Shown here piece after piece: positions 18,501-45,482 of a stretch of DNA of 64,000 nt; position 1 is the stretch's first letter; every line of letters begins with the position of its first letter. The notes under the pieces are model-generated. The model saw only the letters and a program-made list of their open reading frames with translations. It was not told where the DNA came from and ran no database searches. Location: contig NC_042998.1 of the NCBI RefSeq assembly GCF_006345805.1, positions 191,394,001 to 191,458,000 on the forward strand, given 5' to 3'. The DNA is from Octopus sinensis. Lineage: Eukaryota. Both the position numbers and the translations under genes were made by a program.

Positions 18501-18619
18501 CATACAAACTAAATCACAGAATATTGTTGAAGGGAGCGTAAAATTGCTGTGATAGGAGTATTACATAGATGTTCGCATCCACTCTCGCACAAACTCAGAA
18601 ATCCTAACAAATATAAATG

Positions 18620-19248
18620 GGGTCTTTACCTTTTGACCTACAGATTTAAACAATAATTTGTTGTAACTAAACACTTTAAAACTTCGGACAGTGGTAAAAT
18701 GTGTCATAGAAAACATCTTTTACGCTTAGCATATTTACGAAGTTATTTCACGTTATAGTTCTCGTATTTCGGTAATTTCAACAAATCAATGACGTTTATT
18801 CAGTTGAATAAAATTACTGCCCTTTTTTGTTAACAACAACTATCGGTGGTTAATTTTTCGTTTGTCACTGTTAATTATGACATCGTTCGTGCGTTTGTAC
18901 TGGTTTTTAAGGTTTTAGAGTTAGGGTTTCAGGGTTAGGGTAAGGGTTTTAGGGTTAGGGTTAAGGTTTTAGGGTTAGGGTTACAGTTTTAGGGTTAGAG
19001 TTGCCATAACAGTGACAAACAAAATATACACCGTCGGAAGTTCTTGTTGACAAACAACAGCAGTAATTTTATTCAGCTGTATAAACGTCATTGATTGGTT
19101 GAAATTACCGAATTAGGACAACTTTAACGTGAAAATCCTAAGAGTAAAAGTTGTTTTTGTATTACACATTCTACCAGTATTCGAAGTTTGAAAGTGTTTA
19201 GTTACAAAAAATAATTTTTTAAATCTGTCGGTCAAAAGGTAAAGATCC
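18620..19248. mobile_element. Non-autonomous fold-back DNA transposon (Merlin- or Mutator-like MITE) with internal telomeric-type repeats
   Basis: ~250-bp inverted arms (gggtctttaccttttgacc... / ...ggtcaaaaggtaaagatcc); GG..CC termini; perfect 8-bp TSD TATAAATG at 18612-18619 and 19249-19256; TTAGGG array in the spacer. Confidence 0.9.
18907..19002 (+). repeat. Interstitial telomere-like array (TTAGGG variants, ~20-nt higher-order unit)
   Basis: 7 perfect TTAGGG hexamers in units like TTTTAGGG-TTAGGG-TTAAGG. Confidence 0.9.
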
Positions 19249-19810
19249 TATAAATGCACTTGCCTATTCATTTTCGCATACAACTGTCTATTTAAATAGT
19301 CACAGTTGGCAAGGAGGTACTCAATTACAAGTGGAAATGCGTCTTGTTTTGAAAATTCTGAATTACCCAGTTTTCTTAAAAGAAAACAAAGTAACCGTTT
19401 CTTCGCATTTTCGCTCCAACTCATAATAATCACATATTAATTCGTTAACAATTTGTTCCGGATACGAATTTCAGTACAACTGTACCTAAATTAGTCGTCT
19501 AAATATATTTCAGTTACTTCCCTTGGTCCACAATGTGTTATTGAGCAGCCATCTAAGATATTTCTCACGTCCAATTTATACGTGTGAATCGAGCAGGCTT
19601 GATAAGTTTACACTTCACAGATGAGATCTAATAAATCCTAAACATGTCCATAACTATCTTCTTGCAAGTTGCCAAAGACCACTTTATTATTCAAGGTATA
19701 AAAAAATTCAATTTCTGTAATAACTAATTCATAAATTTTTGAATTATCTATCCATTCCCGTTCTCTTAAAACTACATACATACACACACACACATATATA
19801 TATATATTAC

Positions 19811-42662: not shown

Positions 42663-43046
42663 GGTGGAGGCGCAATGGCCCAGTGGTTAGGGCAGCGGAC
42701 TCGCGGTCTTAGGATCGTGGTTTCGATTCCCAGACCGGGCGTTGTGAGTGTTTATTGAGCGAAAACACCTAAAGCTCCACGAGGCTCCGGCAGGGGGTGG
42801 TGGTGATCCCTGCTGTACTCTTTCACCATAACTCTCTCTCTCTCTTACTTCCTGTTTATGTTGTACCTGTATTTCAAAGGGCCGGTCTTGTCACTCTCTG
42901 TGTCACGCTGAATATCCCCGAGAACTACGTTAAGTGTACCCGTGTCTGTGGAGTGCTCAGCCACTTACACGTTAATTTCACGAGCAGGCTGTTCCGTTGA
43001 TCGGATCAACCGGAACCCTCGTCGTCGTAACCGACGGAGTGCTTCC
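42663..43046 (+). mobile_element. tRNA-derived SINE family C, full length
   Basis: A box TGGCCCAGTGG and B box GGTTTCGATTCC; 12-bp TSD acatacacaaca at 42651-42662 and 43047-43058. Confidence 0.92.
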
Positions 43047-43552
43047 ACATACACAACAAGCTTTTTCACAGTTTGCATTTGAAATTTCCACTCTACTTAG
43101 GGTTTACGTTAGAACTAACTTTTCTAATGTGTCACGACGTAGGATCAAATCAGGAATCATGTGGTTGTCAAGTGAACATCATACCAACATCCAATTTATA
43201 AAGTTTGAGTGGATGTCATTGGATGAACGTATGCCCGTGTAGCCTATGTTCTTTACTTTAAAACAATCTTGTATATAAATAAGTATGATGAATGTTGCGT
43301 CACGTAATAAAATTGAATGTCGGCTTCCAAGAGGCAAAATTAAAGTAAATTTGCTTCTCACACCGCATTGTAGTGTAACTGTATGAATAAATTACTGAAT
43401 AATTTAGAGCCTAGAAATATAACAATTAAAGACTCTATTAACTCTTAGATCTACAACAAATAACTAATGTCTGTAATTTTCATGGCACCAAACATTCGTG
43501 AGTTCATGTTAAAGCAAATACCCTCTTTCCTTAGTGCACAATACATAAAGTT

Positions 43553-43750
43553 AGGTGGAGATGCGTGGTTCAGTGGTTACGGTGTTGGATTCATGATCGT
43601 AAGATCATGGTTTCGATTCCGGGACACGCGTTGTGTTCTTGAACAAAACACTTCATTTCAAGTTGCTTCAGTTCGCTCATCTGGGAAAAAATCAGTAATC
43701 CTGTGACGCATTCCCATTCAAGTGGGGAATATATACCGGCCCTATGAGTC
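43553..43750 (+). mobile_element. Degenerate SINE (family D-like); duplicated at ~44631-44828
   Basis: tRNA-like head tggttcagtggtta...ggtttcgattcc; body aaaacacttcatttc...aatcctgtgacg...gtggggaatatata resembles 47025-47285. Confidence 0.7.
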
Positions 43751-43754
43751 TATA

Positions 43755-44123
43755 GGTGGAGGCGCAATGGCTCAGGCGTTAGGGCAGTGGACTCGCGGTT
43801 TCGATTCCAGACCGGGCGTTGTGAGTGTTTATTGAGCGAAAACACCTAAAGCTCCACGAGGCTCCGGCAGGGGGTGGTGGTGATCCCTGCTGTACTCTTT
43901 CACCATAACTCTCTCTCTCTCTTACTTCCTGTTTATGTTGTACCTGTATTTCAAAGGGCCGGTCTTGTCACTCTCTGTGTCACGCTGAATATCCCCGAGA
44001 ACTACGTTAAGTGTACCCGTGTCTGTGGAGTGCTCAGCCACTTACACGTTAATTTCACGAGCAGGCTGTTCCGTTGATCGGATCAACCGGAACCCTCGTC
44101 GTCGTAACCGACGGAGTGCTTCC
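43755..44123 (+). mobile_element. SINE family C, chimeric junction copy
   Basis: Head variant of the 44833 copy joined to the body of the 42663 copy. Confidence 0.88.
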
Positions 44124-44832
44124 ACATACACAACAAGCTTTTTCACAGTTTGCATTTGAAATTTCCACTCTACTTAGGGTTTACGTTAGAACTAACTTTT
44201 CCAATGTGTCACGACGTAGGATCAAATCAGGAATCATGTGGTTGTCAAGTGAACATCATACCAACATCCACTTTATAAAGTTTGAGTGGATGTCATTGGA
44301 TGAACGTATGCCCGTGTAGCCTATGTTCTTTACTTTAAAACAATCTTGTATATAAATAAGTATGATGAATGTTGCGTCACGTAATAAAATTGAATGTCGG
44401 CTTCCAAGAGGCAAAATTAAAGTAAATTTGCTTCTCACACCGCATTGTAGTGTAACTGTATGAATAAATTACTGAATAATTTAGAGCCTAGAAATATAAC
44501 AATTAAAGACTCTATTAACTCTTAGATCTACAACAAATAACTAATGTCTGTAATTTTCATGGCACCAAACATTCGTGAGTTCATGTTAAAGCAAATACCC
44601 TCTTTCCTTTAGTGCACAATACATAAAGTTAGGTGGAGATGCGTGGTTCAGTGGTTACGGTGTTGGATTCATGATCGTAAGATCATGGTTTCGATTCCGG
44701 GACACGCGTTGTGTTCTTGAACAAAACACTTCATTTCAAGTTGCTTCAGTTCGCTCATCTGGGAAAAAATCAGTAATCCTGTGACGCATTCCCATTCAAG
44801 TGGGGAATATATACCGGCCCTATGAGTCTATA

Positions 44833-44985
44833 GGTGGAGGCGCAATGGCTCAGGCGTTAGGGCAGTGGACTCGCGGTTTCGATTCCCAGACCGGGCGTTG
44901 TGTGTGTTTATTGAGCAAAAACACCATAGAAACTGGGAAACCATGAGGCTGGCTAGGCTTGAAAAAGGGCGCATAAATAAAATAA
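44833..44985 (+). mobile_element. Short SINE with family C head and a different tail
   Basis: ggtggaggcgcaatggctcagg...gagcaaaaacacc, then atagaaactgggaaacc...aaataaaataaa. Confidence 0.75.
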
Positions 44986-45482
44986 ATGTGTCTGTATACT
45001 ACATAATGCTACATAAAATGATGGAAAATATAAATAAACAGTAAAAATCAAGAGAATGTGACCAAATGAACCGCAATTTGTAAAAGTATTACATAAAAAC
45101 CTATCGTAGTGAAATTAGGGAAATTATAGTGGGGCAACTTAGAATAAAGTTCATAACAGTACGTGGCGATGTTATTTATGAATTGGCTCTCCTTTCCATC
45201 TTAAACTGTCAGCTACTGTAGATGAAGGTCACTTTTTAAAATGCAATTTTAAAAATTATGTATTTTTGTATAAAAGTATTTCAATAACGATAACTGTTTG
45301 ACAGCCAGGCAAAAATTGTTAAAATAGCGATCCAATGTAAAATATGAGTAAATCATAAGGACTTTATCTCAATATATTTCGTCTCGTCATGAAGTAAGCT
45401 ACATTTGGGTTTCCCAAAAGCTGAATGTCTAACTGATCTGTCCGGTTTCACTGTTCATCAACTTTCATTGTAGTTATATTTC

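What the first reader, a model, noticed from the sequence alone, without database searches (positions are those of the whole stretch)
18612..19256. Fold-back transposon carrying a telomeric TTAGGG array
Seen: a 629-bp element with ~250-bp inverted arms, GG...CC ends and a perfect 8-bp TSD (TATAAATG). Its spacer is mostly a ~95-bp TTAGGG-variant array with a ~20-nt higher-order unit. Established: 8-9-bp TSDs with GG termini fit the Merlin superfamily (Mutator is the alternative), and TTAGGG is the mollusc telomere repeat. Inference: a cut-and-paste family is dispersing interstitial telomeric sequence. It could recruit telomere-binding proteins, form a G-quadruplex in the loop of a long hairpin, seed telomere healing, or provide a long dsRNA substrate for ADAR if transcribed. 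This is the best candidate for an undescribed system in the window.
Basis: partly seen in the sequence, partly recalled or inferred. Interest (0 to 1): 0.75.

Follow-up and report, generated by a model that had tools for sequence, protein, structure and literature searches.

The report
Mini-transposons scatter telomere-like repeats
This is one of thousands of copies of a small gene-less jumping-DNA clan, likely of the Merlin type and likely in an octopus; its members carry a short run of the telomere repeat TTAGGG and make up most of the short internal telomere-like sites sampled, but no function of the run is shown.

Summary
In detail: a 629-bp element with 85%-identical inverted arms, an exact 8-bp TSD and a 96-nt TTAGGG/TTTTAGGG array.

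It is an old copy of a dispersed non-autonomous family (1,105 exact TIR ends). Sister families with related arms add 16,884 exact ends. The array is a family trait, 18-328 nt long between fixed junctions. Sister families B and C carry their own TTAGGG tracts in flanks that do not align. Clan elements hold 21 of the first 25 (TTAGGG)3 sites on contig C1, so transposition is likely the main source of short interstitial telomere-like DNA here.

Merlin is likely (GG ends, near-invariant 8-bp TSD, target bias like resident Merlins). No autonomous partner was found among about 75 Merlin and 40 MULE loci.

The proposed functions lack support. None of 9 long pure arrays borders a clan element, the arrays lose their G runs freely, and editing could not be tested. 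The best reading is a hitchhiking tract that expands by slippage; its presence in three unrelated contexts is unexplained.

The scan noted a similar family before in another genome (e1-9814440, unreviewed).

The parts
18612..18619 (+). left target-site duplication TATAAATG
18620..18882 (+). left inverted arm; pairs with the right arm to 18873, and the family arm runs to about 18882; the terminal ~19 nt are the family TIR with one change at position 3
18883..18906 (+). short unique linker, conserved in family A (a 30-mer over it has 232 exact matches in the genome)
18907..19002 (+). degenerate TTAGGG/TTTTAGGG array, 7 perfect hexamers, copy-specific length
18924..18946 (+). canonical four-G-run quadruplex motif (predicted only)
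19007..19248 (-). right inverted arm ending in the family TIR
19249..19256 (+). right target-site duplication TATAAATG

Best explanation
This is a decayed copy of a high-copy, gene-less fold-back DNA transposon, likely moved in trans by a Merlin-type transposase, whose short TTAGGG tract likely rides along as a passenger. Shown: TIRs, 8-bp TSDs, genome-wide dispersal, and a deletion series from ~1-kb to ~600-bp forms that keeps the tract. Also shown: tract length varies between fixed junctions, and the two arms of a copy are more alike than arms of different copies. Inferred: the transposase binds the terminal ~20-25 bp and makes an 8-bp staggered cut (Merlin about 70%). A seed of two or three repeats entered the master elements, perhaps more than once and perhaps as telomerase additions at breaks during gap repair (about 40%). 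The seed then grew or shrank copy by copy through replication slippage, and the arms exchange sequence through hairpin pairing. The result is that transposition, not one-off repair, supplies most short interstitial telomere-like sites in this genome.
For: Copy number: 1,105 exact family-A TIR ends, control 0; 16,884 sister-family ends, control 0; 192 exact array-to-arm junctions spread along chromosomes. TSD: of 97 two-ended elements, 51 have a perfect 8-bp TSD, 1 a 10-bp and 45 none. Target bias A2/T7 is 0.64 in 48 clan TSDs, 0.54 in 12 resident Merlin TSDs and 0.33 in background. Tract retention: in a TIR-chosen sample of 26 elements, 12 of 12 that keep the arm-spacer junction carry the array; 48 of 48 family-B copies have at least one hexamer and 41 at least two. 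Array 18-328 nt, median 69, in 36 of 38 copies parsed. Deletion series. Clan elements hold 21 of the first 25 (TTAGGG)3 places on C1. Passenger behaviour: 23 of 84 internal hexamers carry one change (about 4.6% per base, close to the 6-7% arm divergence), and 18 of the 23 hit a G. TTTTAGGG is 88 units against 156 TTAGGG in the element arrays but 0-9 per 328-921 hexamers in kilobase arrays. Own-arm distance 0.082 against 0.104 between copies, 0 of 5000 permutations (two outlier copies dropped).
Against: No transposase gene lies between clan TIRs in about 75 Merlin loci or 40 MULE loci. Only 150 of 690 Merlin candidates were scored. TIR-to-TIR similarity did not pick a partner; the best of 45 comparisons split between a MULE arm and a Merlin-family MITE. 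A plain passenger does not explain why three lineages carry the tract in unrelated flanks and in two orientations, while 0 of 10 other Merlin elements or their MITEs carry one. 4 of 16 resident Merlin TSDs read as 9 bp and were left out of the bias comparison. The ITS sample covers only the first 27 Mb of one contig.
Confidence: 0.68

Rival explanations
1. The tract is a selected cis-element: it binds a host telomere-repeat (Myb-domain) protein that helps synapsis of the ends or shields the element from silencing, so tract-bearing masters outcompeted tract-less ones.
For: Families A, B/C2 and C all carry a tract 237-317 nt from an end, in flanks that do not align (6 of 6 comparisons p>0.2) and in two orientations. 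No amplified tract-less subfamily was seen; the 3 of 11 two-ended copies without it have different central deletions.
Against: Resident Merlins and their MITEs spread without a tract (0 of 10). 7 of 48 family-B copies have a single hexamer. There are no binding or transposition data.
Confidence: 0.13
2. The clan belongs to another 8-bp-TSD superfamily (Mutator, hAT, Zisupton, Novosib), not Merlin.
For: Animal MULEs have TIRs over 100 bp and 8-9-bp TSDs (PMC5225508, passages). MULE transposases are present (88 matches). Zisupton and Novosib are reported in cephalopods (PMC10294476, passage); their 8-bp TSD is recalled.
Against: The TSD is nearly always exactly 8 bp, whereas Muta1 gives 8 or 9. 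The arms have no subterminal tandem repeats, which 10 of 12 long-TIR Aedes families have. No clan TIR brackets any of 40 MULE loci. The hAT-like T2/A7 bias (recalled) is depleted, 0.18 against 0.32. hAT, Zisupton and Novosib transposases were not searched.
Confidence: 0.22
3. The tract never came from a telomere or telomerase. It is a microsatellite that arose by slippage from a chance G/T-rich seed and only resembles the telomere repeat.
For: The units are mixed and the perfect runs are short. The shortest copies hold only 18-26 nt. Family B's tract runs into a plain G-rich stretch.
Against: The same hexamer in three unrelated contexts is unlikely by chance seeding. TTAGGG is the one measured cephalopod telomere motif (PMC13218726, passage), and kilobase arrays of it exist in this genome.
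Confidence: 0.25
4. The elements seed telomere healing or grow into long interstitial arrays.
For: Arrays reach 328 nt, and thousands of sites exist.
Against: None of the 9 places with (TTAGGG)10 that were examined has a clan element at a visible array border; one has a copy about 2 kb away across an assembly gap. Only the first 100 of 174 matches were listed, and for some arrays only one border was fetched.
Confidence: 0.05

Closest known systems
Merlin superfamily and its non-autonomous derivatives (PMC8101967; passages and S1 Table part 1 read)
   Same: GG termini, 8-bp TSD, TIR within the 24-462 bp range; internal tandem repeats are common in Repbase Merlins and are proposed to spread by transposition.
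   Different: The repeat here is the host telomere motif, held in three contexts. The S1 Table gives periods but not units and lists no cephalopod family. No transposase link is shown here.
MITEs with hitchhiking simple repeats (lepidopteran (GTCY)n MITEs; Xenopus MITE tandem repeats; titles only, in the reference list of PMC9659126)
   Same: A non-autonomous TIR element carries a variable-length repeat around the genome.
   Different: The repeat is telomeric, and the arms are long fold-back arms.
Short interstitial telomeric sequences of vertebrates (PMC6410037, section 2.1 read)
   Same: Thousands of short TTAGGG tracts inside chromosomes.
   Different: Those are ascribed mostly to one-off NHEJ/telomerase insertions, and transposition is named only as a possibility for large blocks. 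Here 21 of 25 sampled sites sit inside transposon copies.
Aedes Muta1-type MULE / Foldback elements (PMC5225508, passages)
   Same: Long TIRs, 8-bp TSD possible, many non-autonomous derivatives.
   Different: No subterminal tandem repeats in these arms, and the TSD length is nearly invariant.
Telomere-repeat-bearing transposons recalled from memory, no call: ciliate TBE elements, C. elegans Helitron-linked TTAGGC repeats, Arabidopsis ATREP18, some fish non-autonomous TIR elements with GGTTAG cores
   Same: A mobile element carries the host's telomere motif.
   Different: Other superfamilies or positions (TBE has the repeats at its tips). Unverified here; these precedents lower novelty if the recall is right.

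Membership tests
Merlin | TIR begins with GG | tested here: met
   criterion from PMC8101967
Merlin | 8- or 9-bp TSD | tested here: met
   51 of 52 perfect TSDs are 8 bp and one is 10 bp, among 97 elements
Merlin | TIR length 24-462 bp | tested here: met
   arms about 250-280 bp in family A and about 370 bp in C2
Merlin | autonomous member with a DDE_Tnp_IS1595 transposase sharing the TIR | tested here: inconclusive
   none in about 75 loci examined; 150 of 690 candidates scored; TIR comparison undecided
Merlin | target-site bias like resident Merlins (supporting, not defining) | tested here: met
   A2/T7 0.64 (n=48) against 0.54 (n=12) and background 0.33
Mutator (MULE) | long TIR over 100 bp and 8-10-bp TSD | tested here: met
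   criterion from PMC5225508
Mutator (MULE) | subterminal tandem repeats in the TIR (usual in animal Muta-type families) | tested here: not met
   TRF and the repeat finder report no repeat in the arms
Mutator (MULE) | MULE transposase between these TIRs | tested here: inconclusive
   none in 40 of 88 matched loci examined
hAT | T at target position 2 and A at 7; non-GG termini (both recalled) | tested here: not met
   T2/A7 0.18 against background 0.32; hAT transposases not searched
Zisupton / Novosib | own transposase between the TIRs | not tested
   not searched
MITE / non-autonomous TIR element | short, non-coding, TIR plus TSD, high copy number | tested here: met
   no ORF of 90 aa or more overlaps it
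Repair-derived short ITS | one-off insertion of telomere repeats into unique DNA | tested here: not met
   same junctions at 192 and 232 exact sites
Already catalogued family (Repbase/Dfam) | entry with this TIR and core | not testable with these tools
   no repeat library on hand; no such family in the supplements searched

The most novel reading that the evidence does not exclude
A Merlin-type transposon clan picked up the host telomere repeat three separate times, as telomerase patches at broken ends during gap repair, and kept it because host telomere-binding proteins aid its spread. It thereby placed on the order of ten thousand telomere-protein docking sites inside the chromosomes.
Probability: 0.12. 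Interest if true: 0.75.

Novelty: new variant of a known kind. Interest (0 to 1): 0.42.

Why it matters
Short interstitial telomeric sequences are usually read as repair scars or fusion relics. Here a sample suggests that about five in six are transposon cargo. TTAGGG FISH signals, k-mer telomere estimates and telomere-guided scaffolding in such genomes need this caveat. The three unrelated tract contexts give a testable case for whether telomerase leaves marks when MITEs are born, or whether a transposon can use host telomere proteins. If neither holds, it is an ordinary hitchhiking microsatellite in an abundant MITE clan.

Tried and rejected
Autonomous partner: PF12762 and PF10551 searches plus flank inspection found none. 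Clan pieces near Merlin genes were separate insertions, as expected from their density. Longer internal variants end at about 1 kb with no coding remnant. A search for new C2/B centres returned only known forms in 30 of 335 matches read. Candidate 2.5-3.7-kb TIR pairs were tandem or nested short copies. Metagenome scan for the TIR: 0 hits. Viral scan: 1 hit, which did not continue into arm sequence and was taken as chance. TIR alignment against shuffles was undecided.

RNA: no RNA holder was listed. Two runs guessed to be RNA covered only the repeat, not its flanks; this is no evidence either way. The single A>G place also appears in both DNA holders. ADAR editing remains open. Both DNA holders run from each flank into the element, and no listed joint skips it, so no empty allele was seen (15 joints not shown). 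No host gene was recognised in the window's ORF list; it was not Pfam-scanned.

The family-B numbers were discarded because they mixed orientations; they were redone.

Literature: ten searches listed no paper on a TTAGGG-bearing MITE in cephalopods. Most hits were seen only as listings. Supplements not seen: the .aln files of PMC8101967 and 17 of 33 files of PMC10294476.

Full report
Observation. The element spans 18620-19248 (629 bp) between two copies of TATAAATG. Its arms align at 206 of 241 positions, and the strand folds as one long hairpin, z -35.8 against 20 shuffles. The 133-nt loop holds a 24-nt linker and a 96-nt array of TTAGGG and TTTTAGGG units. A canonical four-G-run motif starts at 18924; my G4Hunter-style score averages 0.96 over the array, against 1.5 for a pure run. 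There is no second copy in the window and no ORF of 90 aa or more over it. The host is likely an octopus. This rests on earlier AI notes, large contigs numbered up to C30, and 2n=60 in octopods (abstract listing); I did not test it directly.

Family A. A search with the left arm gave 2,702 candidates, 40 scored, at 84-89% identity. The 19-nt TIR has 1,105 exact matches and the reversed control has none. In the 30 best loci, the window's own included, 29 carry the tract after the arm. That query included part of the linker, so I also took the first 30 TIR matches on C1, which are 26 elements. All 12 that keep the arm-spacer junction carry the array. Of 11 with both ends found, 8 carry it and 3 have lost the centre by different deletions. 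The array runs 18-328 nt between fixed junctions in 36 of 38 copies parsed; 16 of the 36 have a canonical G4 motif. Arms are 6-7% from their majority sequence, so the family is old. Longer forms of 805 to about 1,100 bp keep the tract about 40 nt inside the left arm, followed by 150-300 nt of extra sequence. The window's form is an internal deletion of these.

The clan. Related arms define families B (~420 bp), C (~865 bp) and C2 (a 720-770-bp near-perfect palindrome from which B likely derives). Together they have 16,884 exact TIR ends. All 48 family-B copies from loci not chosen by TTAGGG have the hexamer, 41 have two or more, and they are 4.0% from their majority. The 70 nt on each side of the tract do not align between A, B and C (6 comparisons, p 0.21-0.91). 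The G-strand points inward from the near end in long A and outward in B and C. This suggests separate acquisitions or eroded homology. Ten other Merlin elements or Merlin MITEs from this genome carry no tract.

Share of interstitial telomere-like DNA. (TTAGGG)3 has 12,929 overlapping matches. The first 30 are 25 places on C1, and 21 lie in clan elements: 16 B/C2, 4 A and 1 C (tracts masked in the library). The sample is small and from one region. Long pure arrays are different. The first 100 of 174 (TTAGGG)10 matches fall at 9 places, 7 of them kilobase-long and several beside gaps, and none has a clan element at a visible border. They almost lack the TTTTAGGG unit that makes up about a third of the perfect units in family-A arrays. 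TTAGGG is the only measured cephalopod telomere motif (PMC13218726, passage).

Superfamily. Of 97 two-ended elements, 51 have a perfect 8-bp TSD, one a 10-bp and 45 none (this set includes loci chosen by TTAGGG). Target sites favour A at position 2 and T at 7, as do resident Merlins (4 of 16 Merlin TSDs read as 9 bp were left out). Merlin transposases are abundant and many are intact, with GG ends and 8-bp TSDs, but under other TIRs. About 75 Merlin and 40 MULE loci showed none bracketed by clan TIRs. TIR comparison was undecided. The clan works like a Merlin MITE; membership is likely but unproven.

Arm evolution. In 36 family-A copies (two outliers dropped), a copy's own arms are closer (0.082) than arms of different copies (0.104), reached by 0 of 5000 permutations. 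Variants found in exactly two arms fall in one copy 8 times of 77, against 1.1 expected. This fits arm-to-arm exchange in masters or after insertion; subfamily structure accounts for part of it. The window's copy is the least homogenised, at 0.158.

Function. Nothing shows one. Among 84 internal hexamers, 23 have one change and 18 of those hit a G; the G runs are not spared. Telomere healing has no support in 9 long arrays. Protein binding and editing are untested. The best-supported reading is a passenger tract that changes length by slippage. Its origin by telomerase addition at a break during gap repair is an inference from the mechanism described for short ITS (PMC6410037, section 2.1).

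Known and new. Tandem repeats inside Merlin elements, and their spread by transposition, are in print (PMC8101967). Transposition is named as a possible source of ITS blocks. Ten searches listed no paper on this clan; Repbase and Dfam could not be checked, and I recall telomere-motif-bearing elements in other lineages. An unreviewed note of this scan describes a similar family in another genome. Verdict: new variant of a known kind, interest 0.42.

Noticed in passing
L149, L150, L151, L152 (G000 C5:62.82 Mb, C18:28.0 Mb, C4:59.17 Mb, C18:14.98 Mb): Merlin elements with two transposase frames pointing away from each other; three of them have GG TIRs and a perfect 8-bp TSD around the pair: whole-element fold-backs of coding Merlins.
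   Followed up: no
L348+L331, L349+L333, L350+L332: An 8.7-kb Merlin with an intact 308-aa frame carries an endonuclease/RT LINE inside. Three copies are about 99.5% identical with different 8-bp TSDs, so it moved recently with its cargo.
   Followed up: partly
L334, L335, L339: Long Merlin-like frames (319-323 aa) without detectable TIRs; L334 and L335 are 79% alike over 1.9 kb including upstream DNA. Candidate domesticated Merlin genes.
   Followed up: no
L041, L044-L047: A Merlin family with several ~315-bp tandem units on each side of the gene, inverted between the sides.
   Followed up: no
L092, L102, L104: A single family-A end with nearly the same flank at three places: a TIR fragment carried by another repeat.
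   Followed up: no
L144 (G000 C2:171.18 Mb): At least five clan elements of families A and B packed in 8 kb around a hAT-like transposase fragment.
   Followed up: no
window 19085-19098 and the matching part of all clan arms: A CRE-like motif next to a CCAAT box about 150-200 nt from each end, reading inward; possibly the old transposase promoter (seen in the sequence, untested).
   Followed up: no
window ~42,700-45,000: Identical contexts recur about 1,080 bp apart (43097/44174, 43779/44857): a local tandem duplication.
   Followed up: no
L141:1776-2300 (-): A frame that looks like a chitinase (GH18) exon lies between two family-A copies (by eye, not scanned).
   Followed up: no
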